In this document: positions 1-61,323 of the stretch, piece after piece
How positions within the stretch are numbered: position 1 is the first letter of the stretch
Layout: each line of letters begins with the position of its first letter
NCBI GenBank assembly: GCA_951406725.2
Contig: OX597824.1
Coordinates: 63,426,001 to 63,490,000, forward strand
DNA: 64,000 bases
Source: Octopus vulgaris
Taxonomy: Eukaryota
Direction: 5' to 3'
Notes under the pieces: generated by a model
The model's input: only the letters and a program-made list of their open reading frames with translations
Told to the model about the DNA's origin: nothing
The model's database searches: none
Position numbers and translations under genes: made by a program

Positions 1-824
1 CAAATGTTTGGAACCATGGGTTACTGCTCATCTAACTTTTGGGTACTTAATGCAAGAAGATTGCAGGATTTAATCTATCGACTTAGATTTAGTCCTTATG
101 AATAATGTGACCATCAATTCGAATAAGAATTCCGCCTTAAGCTACGTTATAAAGCTTACAGTATTTTTTGAGGCTTTACGGAGTTTCTCTACACAGTAAT
201 TAATGCACCAAGAGAAACAAAACTCTAAAAATGATGATTTATACATTCAGCATTCACAGAATATAGAAGGCTTGTCACTGAGTTTTCAGTGCTTTAGTAT
301 GATTCTAATATTAATCAACGTGTGTTCGTCCTTTTCTCGCTTCCTATCTTTCACTCGATTTATCTTTCCTTCTATCTATAATTATTTTTCTATCTACGTG
401 TCTAGCTTTATTCCCCTACGGTCATTTCTCTCTCTCTCCCACCATTTGTCAGTCTCTCTACCCACTAATACACTTTCCGTATTTTCCCCTCTCACAAGAC
501 ACCTCTTGATCTTCCTGTTTTCTTATGCAACCCTTACTGACACAGGCTTTAAACAAAATATTAGTATTGAATAAGCAAGAAGAAAGCACACACTATTCAT
601 ATTAATAAATGCGTAAGAAAAACATTGAAAATTGAACGGCTTATAGCACACACAAATAGCAAATGGCGTTGTAAAGATATTCGAATATGTTTATTATTCA
701 TGTGTTCGTACATACGCATAAACAGTAGTCCTGTCATGAACACTTCAGTCTGACCGGTATAACAGAAGTTGCTGTATACCTTTGCACATGTGTTACCACC
801 GGAAATACATAATAAACATGCATC

Positions 825-834
825 TTATTGAAAT

Positions 835-884
<50 letters not shown>

Positions 885-912
885 AAATCAAATATATATG
901 TATATATATATA
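825..912. repeat. (TA)n microsatellite flanked by a duplicated TTATTGAAATCAAATA
   Basis: Same 16-mer at about 825 and 879 either side of a (TA)n run. Confidence 0.85.
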
Positions 913-1292
913 TCATGGCCCGTAAATATTCGGCGTAATCTTACTATCAAAGTGGATTTTTGAACCCAATATTTGCATGCTTTTATTTATAGCTTATATG
1001 CACTTCGCAAAACAATTCTAAAAAGGAATCCCTACAAGTTCTCTCGAAAGTTTAAACATTGTTATGACGTCAATATTATGCACACGCGTGCGACACATAT
1101 ATACATATATGTATATGTGAATATATATATATGCATATATATATGCATATATATACACACACGCACGCACACGCATATACATATACCTATATGTATATAT
1201 GGAAAAATATATATATAAGTATATATATATATATATGTATATACGTATATATACATATACACACACATACATACATAAATATATACATACGT

Positions 1293-1367
<75 letters not shown>

Positions 1368-2477
1368 CTACCAGAGTATGGACCAGTTAGTATACATATA
1401 ACTGTATTTTTCCCAAAACCTCAGAAAATAATGTACAACGCAAAACACTTTACCCAAGCCTTCTTAAAAGCTTCTGTGAATGAAGGAACCATTTCATTTT
1501 CCTAATTTATTTTCTTCAATATTCTTAATATTTTCCCTCATCACTTTCTAAAGTAGATTTTTTGCTGAAAGTTTATAACTATTAAGTTGAGAAGTATCCT
1601 TGTAGTTTAAAGAGATATTGGCGTCTATTGCAAATTCTAAATGTCCATCGTTACCGGCTTGCTGCTAAAGCATTATGACTAAAAAGGCGGTTTCTTAGTT
1701 GTTTTTTTATTTTCTGTCATAACTATTCATCAATGTTCGTAGGAATCTTGATTGTGGTCGATAGATATTCTTGCTAGTCTGGGCGAAATGGAAAACAGGA
1801 ACAACAAATTCAGAACATAGATGTAAAATGCCTCTGGAGCATAAACACATTTTGGTAAGTATTTAAGTCTCTGAAACACACTATCAACCGATCTTAATCG
1901 TAGTTATATAACACATTAAATTTATATATACATGAAATATGTACATAACAAACCACATTTTCAAAAGCTTCAGAACTGATTTCATTTGGGAAGACAAAAT
2001 TTTGTATATTCGGTACACACTGAAGTTATATATACTGAAGTTACTATGATGTAAATTTCTCTTAAAATGCACAAGAGTAAAATCTGTAATGTAGTGTAAA
2101 TTTGCCAAAATATGTATTTTTTACATAATTCGGCTAAAAACCACGTTGCATATCACATATTTCAAATGCTTTTTTTTTTCAGTTTATAAGGAGAATCAAA
2201 TGTGCAATACATTGCGCAAATTGTAAAGAAAAAAACTGCTCTTGAAATGCAGTTTTCATCAAACCCTTCATTCACTACTGTAGAGATAGTCGAAAAATGT
2301 TTACCTAACTAATAGGCGTAAATATAATATCTCAAACAGCACACTGTTCGTATTGTTGATGCTGTTTACTTCCGTTGATTTATATCTTTTAGAAGAAGGA
2401 GCAGTCTCATATCATGTTTGAAAATGCAAATTGCCTAATTATACGTGGTTAAACAAACACACACACACACACACACG

Positions 2478-2548
2478 TATGTATGTATGTATGTATGTAT
2501 GTATGTATGTATGTATGTATGTATGTATGTATGTATGTATGTATGTAT
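2478..2548. repeat. (TATG)n microsatellite
   Basis: Direct reading. Confidence 0.95.
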
Positions 2549-2826
2549 GCATGCACGTACGTATATATGTATGTATGTATTTGTGTATGCTTTAGCAGCG
2601 ATGCGTGATACTAGAATTTTCGACCCGAGTTACGAAGAACAAACTACTACAAATCCTTCCTAGAGGGTCCGTAAAAATAGTATAGGACAGACTAAATTTT
2701 ATTGAAGCCAAGTCGTGCGAATTATAATAAGGAAGTCAAACTAATAATGATTTTGTAGCATTTAATATGTATTAAATGCTTTCATTTATCATTTTTTATT
2801 TGTCTTTATAATATATACATAGATAC

Positions 2827-2938
<112 letters not shown>

Positions 2939-2939
2939 T

Positions 2940-3245
2940 AATATAAGGGTAAATAATTATTAATTTTTAAATTGACAATTGTTACCAAGTGTTATCGGTA
3001 TGAAAAGAGTACCATAAACGGTAGGAACTTTTAGAAAATGTTTTAAATGTATATATATATATATATATAATTAGGGTTAAGCAACAGGTTGCTAAGCCAC
3101 ATACCGAAAATTTAGAAATTGCAGCCAAAAATCACTTTTTCCCATTTACTACAAGTAAATGTTATATGTGGAGCTATATTTCTAGTAAATGGGAATAAGC
3201 GGTTTTTGGCTGCTATTTCTAAATTTTCGGTATGTTGCTAAAATT
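2940..3245. mobile_element. Short non-coding repeat with fold-back inversion (putative PLE pLTR-type remnant)
   Basis: Imperfect inverted repeat 3099-3151/3183-3235. 3070-3128 is homologous to 43074-43132 (TTAGGGTT.AGCAAC...ACCGAA..TTTAGAAAT.GCAG.CAAA). Confidence 0.5.
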
Positions 3246-3263
3246 AATTATATACATATATAT

Positions 3264-3322
<59 letters not shown>

Positions 3323-3387
3323 CATGCATACATGCATACATACATATACACACACGCATACATACATACATATATATACATACGAGA

Positions 3388-4591
3388 CGAGAGGAAATCA
3401 AAAATTATCCGCACTTTCACCATAACACACATTTATTATTGTGACACTGCCTTCTGCGCGTGCATGCATATAGTTGGTACTGAGCCTGATCGCGCCACTT
3501 CTCTTTTTGACTTTACAATGTATGTATGACGGCTCCACTAGTAATGCGCACCAAAGAACAAAGAGCAGTGATCCGATATCTCTGGTCGGTAGATGACAGC
3601 TGCTGAAATTCATCGGAGGCTTTTAGCATAACACGGGGACTGTGCACTACTGCGTAGAAGTATGTATGAGTGGATCGAGAAGTTTGAAATTGACCGGACA
3701 AACGTGACGCACGAAGAAAAAGCAGGATGCCCGTCAACCTCCACCACTGACGAGAAGATCCAGCAAGTTCAAGAGAACCAGCGATTTATCATCAATGAGG
3801 TAGCTCCATCTCTAGAGATTAGTCATATTGCTGCATATCAAATCATCCACGAATAGCTCGGCTTCCATAAAGTCTATGCAAGATGAGTGCCAAGAGAGCT
3901 TACTGCAGAGTACTAGCGCAAGCTTCTTGAGGTCTACCAACGTTTATTCGATCGCTACAGTAATGATGGCGAGTAATCTTTGAGCAGAATTGTCACAGGT
4001 GATGAAACGTGGGTTCATCATTATGAGATAGAATTCGAAGGACGAAATGTGGGACAGAAACTTTCTGGCTCATCACGAGGACCTTATACTGGAAGAGTAC
4101 CTGGAAAAGGGGTGTACAATCAATAGTGTAAGATACAGTGATTTGCTTGCCAAAAACTGACACCAGCAATTCGCACCAAACGCCGAAGCCTATTGTCGAA
4201 GAAGGCTTTCTTATTGCATGCTAATGCACGCCCACATACGGTAGCCAAGACCGTTGAAACCACTAGCCAGTTGGGTTTTGAAGAGCTGAAACGCCCTGCC
4301 TACAACCCAGATGTCGACCCTTCCGACTATCATATCTTTGTATCGCTGAAACATGGTTTACCAGGTCGTCGATTTCCTACGAGGGATGATGCGAAGGAAG
4401 CGGTGCATAAATAGTCGAAAGACAAATCAGAAACCTTCTTCTTGGAGGGAATACACAAGCTTGTGGACCGCTGGCCCTAATGCATCGAAAAGGAAGGAAA
4501 CTATATAGAAATATGACGTACTTGTTTATACCCTGCTTTGTGTAAAAACATTGAAAAAACAAGAGTGCGTATAATTTTTGACTCACCCTCG
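3388..4591 (+). mobile_element. Full-length decayed mariner (DD34D) transposon, about 1.2 kb
   Basis: TIRs CGAGAGGAAATCAAAAATTATCCGCACT / AGTGCGTATAATTTTTGACTCACCCTCG followed by TA. Transposase motifs *VPREL, IVTGDETWVHHYE, LLHANARPH, PAYNPDVDPSDY with stops and frameshifts. Confidence 0.95.
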
Positions 4592-23770: not shown

Positions 23771-25026
23771 TTAGATCGTCAAGTGTGAAATGTGTAGAAA
23801 AGAAAAAAGTTTGCTAATAACTTTATAAAAGTTTACTAATGTTATATAAAAACAAGGGATAGTTTTGTTCATCAAAGTATGCACCCATATTGTCAATACA
23901 CTTTTGCCATTTCAGCGGTAGTTTGTCCATCCCGGAATTGTAAAAGCCTGGCAATCTAGAATCAATAACATTTTGGAAGGCCTGTTTTACAGCATCGTCG
24001 GAATTAAAATGTTTTCCTATCAAAATATTATCCAAATTCTGGAAGAAGTGGTAGTCAGTCGGGGAAAGATCAGGTAAGTATGGTGGATGATGGAGAACTT
24101 CCAAATCCAAATTCAGTAGTTTCGCCAATGTCAATTTTGCGATGTGTGGTCTGGCGTTGTCTTGCGATAAAATAGGAGTGGATTTGTTGATTAATTTGTT
24201 CTTTTTTTTTGTAAGTTTCTGCATCATTTGGTCCAGTTCGCCGCAGTATACTTCGGCCGTGATTGATGAGCCAGCTTTAATGAAATCATAATGGATCACA
24301 CCTACACCAGACCACCAAACATACACCATCAGCTTCTTTTGATGAATTTTGCATTTTGGACTGTGTTTTGGTGGCCCGCCTTTGTCTAACCATTGTGCTG
24401 AACGATTACAGTTGTTGTATTGGATCCATTTTTCATCGCGTTACAATTCGATTCAAAAATGATTCATTTTTGTGACGAGAATGTAGCATAATGCAGGCTA
24501 CCAAACGTTGCTGTTTCTTATTTTCATTCAGTTCATGTGGAACACACTTATCCAACTTTTACACTTTACCGATTTGAACTAGGTGAGTCAATATTGTTTG
24601 CTTGCTAACACCAAACAAAACGACAATTCACGGGCACTTTGAGATAGATCTGACTCGACGGTGACTTTCAGTTCGTCATTATACACCTTTGTTTCTGGTC
24701 GATCGCGTTGCTCATTTGTGAGGTCAAAATAACCAGAATGAAATTTTGCAAACCAATTAACATTCCGAACTGTCTTTGATGCTGTATTTCCAAGAAAGAA
24801 CTCATATTTCAAAACTGTACGAATTTCTAACTTATCAATCTCTAAGCCAAAATAGCAAAACACGATTTATAAATACTTTATAAAGCGCAAAATGAGTTAA
24901 CATAAAGAAATATGTGTCAGCTTTCTGACAAGAAATAAAGGTTGTCAAAATATAATAAAGTCACAAAATGAGTAGCTGTCAAAGTTTACCATATACTTAC
25001 TACAAATTTCATACTTGACGACTTAA
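23771..25026 (-). mobile_element. Full-length decayed mariner (DD34D), about 1.26 kb
   Basis: TA-flanked TIRs TTAGATCGTCAAGTGTGAAAT / ATTTCATACTTGACGACTTAA. Motifs WFAKFHSG, KCVPHEL, DEKWIQY, QDNARPH, HPPYLPDLSPTDYHFF (ORFs 23823-24329 and 24588-24863). Confidence 0.95.
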
Positions 25027-25837
25027 TAATAGCTACATAGCATGGAAATACTTTCTAAAGCATTAGCACATGTTTATCCTTTTATTCTATACCGCACAGT
25101 TACAGTGAAGTAAACATATCGGAACTAGTTGCCATTCGATGAGAGTGGATACACGCAATCAGAAAGATGCAAATTCAATGGCCTTTCACATATTCACATT
25201 TGTCAAATTCACTTAAAAGGCATTGATCGGAGTGAGGCTATTGTAAAAAAAATACTTGCTTAAGGTGCCACGATGTGGGACTGAACCAGATACACTGTGA
25301 GTTCAAAGCGAACTTCTTAGTTACGCAACTGTCTTGAAACTACCACACAGATACTGACCTCCCGAATTTCATTTTATCTTTACAGTTCAATAATTTCAGT
25401 TTTCTGGTATGCTTATCTTTTATCTTTTACATGTTTCAGTCATTGAACTGCGGCCATGCCGGAGAACTGCCACGAAGAATCTATAATCAAATGAATCGAC
25501 GGCAGTGCATTTTTTCCTTTTTTTCAACGAATCAATGACATTTGATATTTTATTTATTTTCATACACTTACCCTCCATTCTTCGAACGATATATGAAGAA
25601 GCATGTTGTTAACAAGTAGATTCCAAGTAACCTGTAGTTTCCAACCTCACCATTAATAAAAACACTAAATTAACGTATATTTAATTGTAGTTCTATTTAA
25701 TACACACACTCACACACAACTTCATATATACGTTAAAGTAGTGAGTAAAGGCAAGGCCTGACAAGGATATTTAATATCATTTAATTCAATCTAATTTAGC
25801 CACATAACGAATGGGTGAAAAATAGTAAAAAATATAA

Positions 25838-25926
25838 TCTCTGACAGCTGTTTCTGGAATGCCCACCCAATGGAGCCTTCTATTGAGCGAAGGCTCCGTA
25901 TGGTGGATATATCATCATCAGAGAGA
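25838..25926 (-). ncRNA. Minimal type I hammerhead ribozyme with extended stem II
   Basis: Minus: TCTCT-CTGATGA-[long stem II including CCACC/GGTGG and GGAGCCTTC/GAAGGCTCC]-GAAA-C-AGCT-GTC-AGAGA. Full catalytic core, GUC triplet, 5-bp stem I, palindromic stem III. Confidence 0.8.
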
Positions 25927-26029
25927 TATAGATAATAAAGTAGAGGAAAGTTCCTCATCAATGATATTTATTGTTGTTCATTATGTCCAGGAGAGAGGAA
26001 GGGTCCAGTTAAATCCAGTTAGTTCATAA

Positions 26030-26150
26030 ATACTCCACTCTAAACGCTTCGCAACGTTTGTTTTTGAAAGCAGTGGTTTTCTAATTGCAGCCGTCCCGTG
26101 AAATCCGACTTTGTACAGCTCCCGTCCAACAGTTTTTGTGGAAACATAAC
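26030..26150 (-). mobile_element. Tc1-family transposase fragment (HTH to N-catalytic linker)
   Basis: VSTKTVGRELYKVGFHGTAAIRKPLLSKTNVAKRLEW. Confidence 0.85.
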
Positions 26151-27013
26151 ATAGCAGTCCTGGCTTAGGACGAATGTTGCTGTAATTTTCACACAAGGCC
26201 AGCATTTCGAGAGAGACGTGTAAGTCGATTACATTGATCCAGTGTTCAACTGGTACTTATTTTATCGACCCAGAAAGGATGAAAGGCACCACAGCAGAAT
26301 TCGAAGTCAGAAAGTAAAGACGGATGAAATGAGGCTAAGCCTAGTGCTTGGCGCGGTGACGATTCTGCCAGTTCGCCGCGTCAGATTTACATCTAACTAT
26401 TGCGAGTTAATCATAACTAACTTTATTCAAACCCAGTCTCTTGTAGGTGGCCCTTATATAAACAGAAAGTACACGGTTAATGCGAAATTCGGGGCAAACA
26501 CATACGCGTTGGCTTGCAAACATATGCATATATGTAAACTTAAGACAAAATTTACCAAGTCACCCACTCAATAACTTATATGCTGTTACACATACATACA
26601 TTTGCTGGTGCGTATATACATTAAAATAAACAAATATAAAGCATACATATATACCTAGGTATATGCATACTTACATAGACATACATGCGAACATACATCT
26701 ATTCTAGTCATAGACATATATGTGTACGCATGCATACATTTAAGTATTTTAGTGTACATAGAGAGAGAAACATTTTTTTAAATCTATTGACAGCATTCAG
26801 GTTTCTGTTACCTGCTTAAGCAATACCATATATCTAGATCGATAATCTTGCGGTTGTTTTCGCCACATATTTCAATACTTTTCTAATGTTATTGTAATCC
26901 AGACGATCAATCGATAAATCGGTGGTATAACAACTTATTGATTTAAAATCAAGTACGGCCACAATCTCTATCATCTTGTTTTTCCTTCATTCTTTTACCC
27001 CTCTTCCTATTTT

Positions 27014-41485: not shown

Positions 41486-42615
41486 TATGTTTGACTTTTG
41501 CTTTATATTTGTACAAGTTGGCTCCAAGTCTCACCCAGAGACCTCAAGAGACAACAGGGTTGGAAGTTCATGTTGTTGTTATGCCTAGTGTGCCATATAT
41601 TTGGGGGGGGGGATGTTGTACTAATGAATGTCTAAAAAAAAAAGGTTTTTTTTTTTTTTTTTTTTTTAAACCGAAAATTATGTTTGTTTTAAACCTTGAG
41701 ATTACATAGAGAGTATTTTGCGTAGGATATGAGCAGTTCCCATGAGCACTATCTTTTGAACTTCTGCCATTTTTGGGTTTCCTGGTATCTGAGTTAGGTA
41801 GCTATCAGCCCCTTTTGCTATCATTCCCAGGGCACCTATGACAACAGGTATTGTTTTAGTCTTCAGCTTCCACATTTTGCTGATTTCTATTTCAAGATCT
41901 TTATATTTGCTCAGTTTTTGGTAGGTCTTGACAGATACGTTTATATCGATTGGGACAGTCATATCAATGAGGAGGCATGTTCTTTGTTTGAAGTCTTTCA
42001 ATATGATGTCTGGCCTATTTGCATCTATCTTCCTGTCAGTTTGAATGGTGAAGTTCCAGAGGAGTGAGATGTGGTCATTTTCAAGCACTGGGGGTGGTTT
42101 GTGTTCCCACCAGTTTTTTTTATGGGGCAAATCCAGGTTTTTACAGATTACCCAGTGATATATTGTGCAGCTCTATCGTGCCTGTTGAGATACTCTGTAG
42201 GTGCTAGAAGACTACACTTGGAGACCACATGGTCAATGGTTTCATTTTGTTGCTTGCATACACGACACGTTGGACTGCTTCTGATCTTTAATATGTTGGC
42301 CTGGTAGTTTCTTGTTGGTAGGCATTGATCTTGAGCTGCTATGATAAACCCCTCTGTTTCAGATTTTAAGCCAGAGGCCATTAGCCATTGATGGGTCAGG
42401 GCTTTGTCGATATCTGCATTATTCGCTCTCTTTGGGTATTTGCCATAGAGAGGTTTTTCTTGCCATTTATTATTTAGAATATCTAAGGCCGCAGTTTTGG
42501 CACGGGTTTTCATGCGCCTAGCTTTTTCTGTGCTTGTTTCTTGTATATCTATCTCTAATTCCGAAATTGGTTGTATTCGGAATTCACTTAGATATTCCTT
42601 TGCCTGTTTTGTGAC
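41485..42615 (-). mobile_element. Dong/R4-clade non-LTR retrotransposon, 5'-truncated (CCHC knuckle, RLE, 3'UTR)
   Basis: ETEGFIIAAQDQ, CRVC..ETIDHVVSKC, RHD, RPDIIL..LLIDMTVP..KLSKYKDL..PVVIGALG (ORFs 42148-42513 and 41702-42130, one frameshift). (TAA)n on both sides. Confidence 0.92.
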
Positions 42616-50681: not shown

Positions 50682-50866
50682 ATAACAACAACAACAGCAA
50701 CAATAATATTACCTTAGGAATGAGAAACCAGGTTCAAAATTTCCCCAAGACAACTGATGAAGGCTGAAGGGTATATCGGCCGAAACGTTGTGTTAACAAC
50801 AAACAAGAATTTACAAGAATGTGAATACTGTAAATAATGTACATGATTCCTCATCTCTTAAATATA
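50682..50866 (+). mobile_element. Second, head-less copy of the hammerhead-bearing SINE-like family
   Basis: (CAA)n..ACCTTAGGAATGAGAAACCAGGTTC..GACAA-CTGATGA-A-GGCTGA..TCGGCC-GAAA-C-GTT-GTGTT..CCTCATCTCTTAAATATA, colinear with 5666-5850 minus. Confidence 0.85.
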
Positions 50867-61031: not shown

Positions 61032-61323
61032 AATATTATTATCAGTTCAAATATGTTTATGGCACATTCGAACCGTATGCAAGCTCGCTGATTGGCGCTA
61101 CTAGTGATCGCAGCGCACCCTCTTTATTTTCTGTGACTGAAGAGGAGATAATCACTTCGAAATACTAGCATCCCTCAGTCTGGGTAGTTGGCGCTGCGAG
61201 CTGATTTTGGTGTATTTACACCATTTGTCTACTGCGAGAAATAATCTCCATCACAAAACACAGTGAATGGCTTGCATACGGGTTATAACGTGTCGCAAGC
61301 ATGTTTTAACTGGTAATAATATT
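61032..61323. mobile_element. MITE with about 54-bp imperfect TIRs
   Basis: AATATTATTATCAGTTCAAATATG..CCGTATGCAAGC / GCTTGCATACGG..CATGTTTTAACTGGTAATAATATT. Inner CGCAGCGC/GCGCTGCG pair. Confidence 0.75.

What the first reader, a model, noticed from the sequence alone, without database searches (positions are those of the whole stretch)
25838..25926. Intact-core minimal hammerhead with unusually long stem II and palindromic stem III
Seen (minus): all core nucleotides (CUGAUGA, GAAA, GUC), 5-bp stem I, ACAGCUGU palindrome at stem III and a stem II of about 60 nt with a perfect 9-bp apical helix. The base of stem II has mismatches. Known: metazoan minimal type I hammerheads with palindromic stem III occur in PLE pLTRs and non-LTR retrozymes and cleave as dimers. 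Inference: best candidate for a functional ribozyme here, which could cut a minus-strand transcript.
Basis: partly seen in the sequence, partly recalled or inferred. Interest (0 to 1): 0.8.

Follow-up and report, generated by a model that had tools for sequence, protein, structure and literature searches.

The report
Decaying retroelement hammerhead with oversized hairpin
This is a real hammerhead-ribozyme motif inside a roughly 300-base fragment of an old dispersed repeat, likely the end of a Penelope-like retroelement; its unusually long hairpin was not found in sibling copies and has picked up pair-breaking changes in a related species, so it is probably a decaying relic rather than a working host ribozyme.

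Summary
The motif is as described: an intact type I hammerhead core on the minus strand, 6-bp stem I, 8-nt palindromic stem III, predicted cut at 25843/25842, and a 60-nt stem II (20 of 26 positions paired). It is not chance. Public contigs laid on the stretch show a dispersed repeat at about 25700-26022, truncated upstream. Siblings share both flanks, but no sibling contig in organism A covers the stem II apex at 80% identity or better. One sibling reads as a 10-bp stem II. The same insertion in organism E has 8 listed changes in the 60 nt, 4 pairs broken and none compensated. The copy is solitary, while this ribozyme class needs a dimer or protein help. Best reading: the 3'-end relic of a Penelope-like element whose ribozyme was probably active in the parent element and is probably drifting here. 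No reverse transcriptase or endonuclease gene was found, so the Penelope assignment is inferred. Cleavage is untested. The long stem II is far outside the published range I saw (8 bp or less) but looks private or rare.

The parts
25697..26022 (-). Dispersed repeat fragment carrying the hammerhead; upstream (high-coordinate) end truncated at 26022; low-coordinate end approximate (25697-25730)
   Evidence: summed contig depth about 730-4060 in the flanks against 63.6 for the locus's own contig in X2; 10 (X2) and 16 (X11) contigs run on past 26022 with a near-identical shared different sequence
25922..25927 (-). Stem I, 5' strand
25915..25921 (-). Core CUGAUGA (C3-A9)
25855..25914 (-). Stem II and loop II: 26 positions in register, 20 paired, 8-nt loop 25888-25881; apex not shared by sibling contigs
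25851..25854 (-). Core GAAA (G12-A15.1)
25844..25851 (-). Palindromic stem III, predicted dimerisation site (self-duplex -11.1 kcal/mol)
25842..25843 (-). Predicted cleavage site 3' of GUC
   Evidence: hammerhead consensus; not tested
25837..25842 (-). Stem I, 3' strand
26031..26145 (-). Adjacent truncated Tc1-type transposase fragment, not part of the element
   Evidence: Pfam PF01498 E 9.5e-10; loose ends at 26031

Best explanation
This is a genuine hammerhead motif in a solitary, upstream-truncated copy of a dispersed repeat that is likely the 3' terminal repeat (pLTR) of a Penelope-like retroelement, and at this locus it is probably a neutrally decaying relic. Inferred mechanism: in the parent element, two ribozymes in a tandem transcript would pair through the 8-nt palindrome, or be helped by the element's own protein, and cut after GUC. 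Reverse transcription then dropped a truncated 3' end here before organisms A and E split. Stem II was likely a near-perfect 26-bp hairpin at insertion, made by extending the family's short basal stem (a rare subfamily or a one-off fold-back), and has since lost pairs by point mutation. Shown: motif, repeat status, truncation, shared insertion, stem II not shared by siblings, uncompensated changes. Inferred: Penelope identity, ancestral activity, present inactivity.
For: The motif fits the published PLE minimal-hammerhead consensus: core, extra base after A9, short helix I, palindromic 15-16 region, U-rich and AU-rich flanks (PMC4209133 text and Fig. S3). Most such motifs are single, truncated-PLE leftovers; repeat-level depth on both flanks; single-locus depth at 25880-25899 in X2 (63.6) and X10 (3.1); joints in X2, X10 and X11 link the GAAAC side (25853-25857) to the upstream side (25939-25976) across the unmatched middle; siblings run on past 26022; a joint between opposite strands (25990/26022, one contig each in X2 and X10) is of the inverted-copy kind described for PLEs (PMC8557442). 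X11 records 9 and 13 cross the left and right junctions, so the insertion is shared. Record 13 has 8 listed changes in the 60-nt stem II against 14 in its other 214 nt (Fisher p 0.11): 4 pairs broken, 2 kept, 1 open pair still open, 0 compensatory, leaving 16 of 26 paired. A second X11 contig keeps 13 of the 22 pairs it covers (window: 18). At 6-11% divergence a perfect 26-bp stem should have 3.0-5.4 hit pairs; 7 are seen. Single minimal hammerheads did not cleave in vitro, and the anole PLE ribozyme needed protein (PMC11167929).
Against: No RT or GIY-YIG gene was found: 0 PLE-type Pfam hits in 91 open frames of 75 aa or more, and the 41-aa frame through the motif found no real relative. Core, palindrome and stem I (28 nt) are all intact in this copy, which has P 0.04-0.18 under neutral decay. 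The 9-bp apical helix is perfect here. Seven hit pairs is high for the lowest divergence estimate (P 0.026 at 6%), so some internal loops may be ancestral. One search hid 36 difference rows, 6 joints, 213 loose ends and 1383 pieces, so the state of the core in organism E is unknown and tandem joints cannot be excluded. Only about 80% of run X2 was read, and contigs drop rare variants.
Confidence: 0.65

Rival explanations
1. A solo monomer of a non-coding, non-LTR retrozyme family (a non-autonomous Penelope derivative spread through small circular RNAs), also decayed at this locus.
For: Length about 300-325 nt, low GC and no coding frame found. Retrozyme families have many dispersed monomers and are linked to pLTRs (bioRxiv 10.64898/2026.07.22.740005; PMC7229834).
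Against: No tandem unit in the window. None of the 15 joints shown goes back as a tandem unit would (6 hidden). Siblings extend upstream of 26022 (median loose length 170 nt in X2). The motif has the minimal PLE form rather than the canonical 6-bp helix I / 4-bp helix II form.
Confidence: 0.2
2. The copy is still an active ribozyme that cuts a minus-strand transcript at this locus, with the long stem II anchoring the fold.
For: All invariant core letters, 6-bp stem I and the palindrome are intact. U-A at the base of helix II occurs in published PLE motifs (Hydra and Schistosoma mansoni(3) rows). The active dimer is predicted at -76.3 kcal/mol, below two separate monomers (-74.4).
Against: No partner copy in 64 kb. 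The predicted monomer pairs the core CUGA with the UCAG at the cut site (probability 0.46-0.98; hammerhead stem I 0.01-0.06), and the hammerhead fold lies 7 kcal/mol above the minimum. This mispairing follows from the motif's own letters, so it need not be peculiar to this copy. The ortholog's stem II decays without compensation. Being able to cleave in vitro would not show a role.
Confidence: 0.1
3. A chance core motif around an unrelated inverted repeat.
For: No Rfam hammerhead match. The stem II apex is not shared by siblings.
Against: 0 of 100 resamples and 0 of 15 metagenome matches meet the structure. Both halves of the core lie in family-shared sequence (X2 records 19-21). One sibling (X9 record 26) reads as a separate, short, in-register stem II with a similar base.
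Confidence: 0.03

Closest known systems
Minimal type I hammerheads of metazoan Penelope-like elements (Cervera and de la Pena 2014, PMC4209133)
   Same: CUGANGA plus one extra base, GAAA, palindromic 15-16 region, NUH triplet, short helix I, U/AU-rich flanks, mostly solitary copies, highly variable motif within a genome. The Saccoglossus(2) row has a stem III of the same CA-palindrome-UGU form.
   Different: Helix II is 26 positions and 60 nt here, against at most 8 bp and about 24 nt in the 56 rows of their Fig. S3 (my reading; their descriptor limited stem sizes). An A lies between C11.1 and GAAA; one of their 56 rows reads AGAAA, the Cotesia bracovirus PLE row if the PDF order is kept. No ORF was found beside this copy.
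Poseidon element of Anolis (PAc) hammerhead (PMC11167929)
   Same: pLTR hammerhead; an AUG at the start of stem II (here A9-U-G); insertion ends about 100 nt past the ribozyme.
   Different: Here the AUG is out of frame with the sequence after GAAA (61 nt), the U is C in the ortholog and in two siblings, and no protein relative was found.
Non-LTR retrozymes (PMC7229834; bioRxiv 10.64898/2026.07.22.740005)
   Same: About 300-nt non-coding repeat with a type I hammerhead; dispersed monomers occur.
   Different: Defined by tandem units, which were not seen here; siblings extend upstream.

Membership tests
Type I minimal hammerhead (PLE type) | Invariant core CUGANGA ... GAAA and NUH triplet | tested here: met
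Type I minimal hammerhead (PLE type) | Helix I closing the motif next to the cut site | tested here: met
   6 bp
Type I minimal hammerhead (PLE type) | Palindromic positions 15-16 / loop III | tested here: met
   8-nt palindrome
Type I minimal hammerhead (PLE type) | Extra base between positions 9 and 10.1 | tested here: met
   U at 25914; C in the ortholog and two siblings, followed by G
Type I minimal hammerhead (PLE type) | G10.1-C11.1 pair directly before GAAA (over 80% consensus, not invariant) | tested here: inconclusive
   The G-C pair is present but offset by A25855, or U-A is the base pair. Both arrangements appear among published rows. Whether siblings have this A is not visible.
Type I minimal hammerhead (PLE type) | Self-cleavage (as dimer or protein-assisted) | not testable with these tools
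   no assay; contigs cannot show RNA ends
Penelope-like element (EN+) | Linked ORF with PLE reverse transcriptase and GIY-YIG endonuclease | tested here: not met
   None in the window; the copy is truncated at 26022 and the upstream family sequence could not be fetched. Not filed as a proven PLE.
Penelope-like element (EN+) | Hammerhead in terminal repeat; 5'-truncated copies; inverted or tandem arrangements | tested here: inconclusive
   Truncation shown by loose ends; one opposite-strand joint each in X2 and X10; weak inverted self-similarity beside this copy (6 of 200 shuffles as good)
Non-LTR retrozyme | Head-to-tail tandem units each with a hammerhead | tested here: not met
   single copy in the window; no go-back joint among the 15 shown of 21
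Non-LTR retrozyme | Abundant small circular RNA | not testable with these tools
   only contigs were available

The most novel reading that the evidence does not exclude
A retroelement family whose hammerhead carries stem II as an exchangeable module (about 10 bp in one sibling, 26 bp here, with a similar basal stem). The long form is a double-stranded RNA big enough for ADAR, and A-to-I editing at its three A.C mismatches (25912, 25908, 25871) would re-pair the stem and switch the ribozyme on: an editing-gated ribozyme in a host that I take to be a heavily editing cephalopod (host and editing level recalled, not shown).
Probability: 0.04. Interest if true: 0.8.

Novelty: new member of a known kind. 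Interest (0 to 1): 0.25.

Why it matters
As it stands it matters little: animal genomes hold hundreds to thousands of such motifs (PMC4209133; 235 Rfam hammerhead loci in the giant squid assembly, PMC6962438). Its use is as a sign that length-capped descriptors and Rfam miss long-stem-II variants, and that stem II can be replaced wholesale while the flanks stay 77-90% alike. If many siblings each carried a different but paired stem II, that would be direct evidence of selection on ribozyme fold during retrotransposition, which bears on the open question of what PLE hammerheads do.

Tried and rejected
No assembly is held for this window, so no genome-wide copy set, covariance model or family alignment could be built. 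Rfam: 0 hits at gathering in 64 kb; 5 weak non-hammerhead hits at E up to 10 in 25500-26200, taken as chance. Pattern scans: 0 in viral contigs; 15 in metagenome contigs, all chance, with no stem I and no BLAST similarity to the element. Protein searches with the 41-aa frame through the motif: nothing. One hit, P0002, is a tandemly repeated peptide whose E-value is the sum of 11 weak stretches of about 21 bits each, unnamed; rejected. Expression: no RNA holder listed. Run X9 (RNA only by guess) has contigs on both outer flanks at depth 2.5 and none over 25860-26020; this is no evidence either way. Run X10's identical 171-nt piece at depth 3.1 may be the same species' DNA and was not used as an ortholog. 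Runs laid: 4 of the 24 listed. The mariner protein search did not identify the host (best hits 73% or less, named ones from insects, a spider and nematodes). Supplements: no match to the motif letters or flanks in PMC8557442 or PMC4209133 file 2 (file 1 not searched). Lunse et al. 2016 (PMC5785218) is not held and may include longer stem II variants. Searches for long or extended stem/helix II and for cephalopod hammerheads listed no description of a stem II this long; the 'long helix II' in PMC13725137 means 6 bp. A pre-miRNA reading was dropped: only chance-level Rfam hits, and decay in the ortholog. The three A.C mismatches are also the commonest product of transitions, so they do not favour editing.

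Full report
Observation. Stem II is one ungapped register of 26 positions with 20 paired and an 8-nt loop. It is not chance. The fold has z = -4.78 with 0 of 200 shuffles as stable. My descriptor found 1 hit in the window, against a mean of 0.02 (stem I of 5 bp or more) in 100 Markov resamples, none with the palindrome. 0 of 15 metagenome matches to the core letters had a stem I of 3 bp or more. Rfam does not detect it.

Setting. The window is microsatellite-rich animal DNA with short interspersed repeats, a mariner transposase at 24440-23826, a Tc1-type fragment just upstream of the element and a non-LTR fragment near 42200-42600. I take the host to be an octopus from recalled SINE sequences; no call confirmed this. 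No PLE reverse transcriptase or GIY-YIG hit was found among 91 open frames. There is no second copy of the element in the 64 kb.

Family evidence. No assembly was held, so I listed public runs (24) and laid 4 of them at 80% likeness (contigs only, outputs truncated). In X2 the locus's own contig has depth 63.6. Summed depth is about 730-4060 over 25700-25859 and 25920-26019, but 68.1 and 63.6 over 25860-25899. X10 shows the same dip; in X11 two contigs cover the apex. Depth is not a copy number, but the pattern is clear: siblings share both flanks and both halves of the core, not the long hairpin. Five listed joints link 25853-25857 to 25939-25976 across an unmatched middle. Ten contigs in X2 and 16 in X11 continue past 26022 with a shared different sequence, so this copy is truncated upstream. 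One contig each in X2 and X10 holds the element on both strands. The 30 loose letters of X9 record 26, read on the minus strand by hand, give a stem II of 10 positions (8 paired, counting the base position whose letter is not shown) with a 9-nt loop, preceded by GA. That sibling appears to have C at core position 6. This rests on one contig and 30 letters.

Ortholog test. X11 (organism E) record 13 spans 25785-26058 without gaps and record 9 spans 25520-25807, crossing both junctions, so the insertion is shared. Eight of record 13's 22 differences are listed within the 60-nt stem II (Fisher p 0.11 against the rest of the record, 0.21 against record 9). They break 4 pairs (25914/25855; 25903/25866, where both sides change to a mismatch; 25897/25872; 25889/25880), keep 2 (25907/25862, 25890/25879) and leave one open pair open: 16 of 26 paired, 0 compensatory. 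A second X11 contig (about 25840-25910, probably the other allele) keeps 13 of 22 pairs, against 18 in the window. The six mismatches of the window copy are not listed as different in E in a way that repairs them, so they probably predate the split. Thirty-six rows were hidden, so the core in E is unknown. With this copy about 6-11% from the family majority (my estimate from the listed and hidden rows), a perfect 26-bp stem would carry 3.0-5.4 hit pairs; 7 are seen. An intact 13-letter core has P 0.22-0.45, and the 28 letters of core, palindrome and stem I have P 0.04-0.18.

Mechanism. The predicted monomer pairs the core with the cut-site strand (probability 0.46-0.98); the hammerhead fold is 7 kcal/mol higher. 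The active dimer is -76.3 kcal/mol, against -74.4 for two monomers and -81.7 for the best mispaired dimer. These models omit tertiary contacts. Published work fits a dimer or protein requirement: a single minimal hammerhead was inactive and dimers weak (PMC4209133), and the anole element's ribozyme cut only with its protein and was dispensable for insertion in vitro (PMC11167929). I infer that the ribozyme processed tandem transcripts in the parent element and that this lone truncated copy is a relic. Whether the long stem came from a rare subfamily or a one-off fold-back is open.

Comparison. It works like, and matches the invariant features of, the PLE minimal hammerheads. It differs in stem II length (60 nt against about 24 nt or less in 56 published rows) and in the extra A before GAAA, for which a precedent may exist in that figure. 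PLE membership is inferred, since no ORF was found. Retrozyme membership fails on tandem structure in the window.

Papers seen. PMC4209133: text parts 1-2 of 4 and supplement file 2 parts 1-2 of 3. bioRxiv 10.64898/2026.07.22.740005: parts 1-2 of 5; its supplements are closed. Passages only: PMC7229834, PMC8557442 (plus one supplement search), PMC6765202, PMC11167929, PMC13725137, PMC13282606 (supplement listed, not read; a repeat library there or elsewhere may already hold this family), PMC8967140, PMC6962438, PMC544870, PMC6466107. Lunse et al. 2016 was not seen, only citations of it. That a stem II this long is not described rests on searches only.

Verdict. Observation confirmed; the 'functional here' inference is not supported. 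New member of a known kind with an odd, apparently private, long stem II. Interest 0.25.

Noticed in passing
window 50754-50790 (+) and 5790-5755 (-): Two copies of a different, short-stem-II minimal-hammerhead repeat with extra base and G10.1-C11.1, each just downstream of an (AAC/AAT)n tract; both look damaged in stem I, II or III.
   Followed up: partly
window 61137-61163 (+): Another CUGAAGA...GAAA core with a short spacer that may be a third minimal-hammerhead family.
   Followed up: no
window 25509-25598 vs 25720-25833: Weak inverted similarity beside the element (score 44; 6 of 200 shuffles as good), and an 18-nt 89% inverted repeat at 25663-25680 / 25726-25743; may be an old inverted copy or tail.
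   Followed up: partly
window 23826-24866 (-): Fragmented mariner transposase, 73% identical to its best database relative.
   Followed up: partly
window 41705-42615 (-): Frameshifted 3' end of a non-LTR retrotransposon ORF (zf-RVT hit E 5e-6).
   Followed up: no
window 26185-26380 and 25410-25500: Two high-copy SINE-like repeats with several further copies in the window.
   Followed up: no
window near 25749: This copy lacks letters that siblings and the organism E ortholog carry (loose ends; 17 gap letters in record 9), suggesting a small deletion.
   Followed up: no
P0002: Unnamed 657-aa frame made of a 55-aa tandem repeat on a 90-kb ENA contig; probably a read-through tandem DNA repeat.
   Followed up: partly
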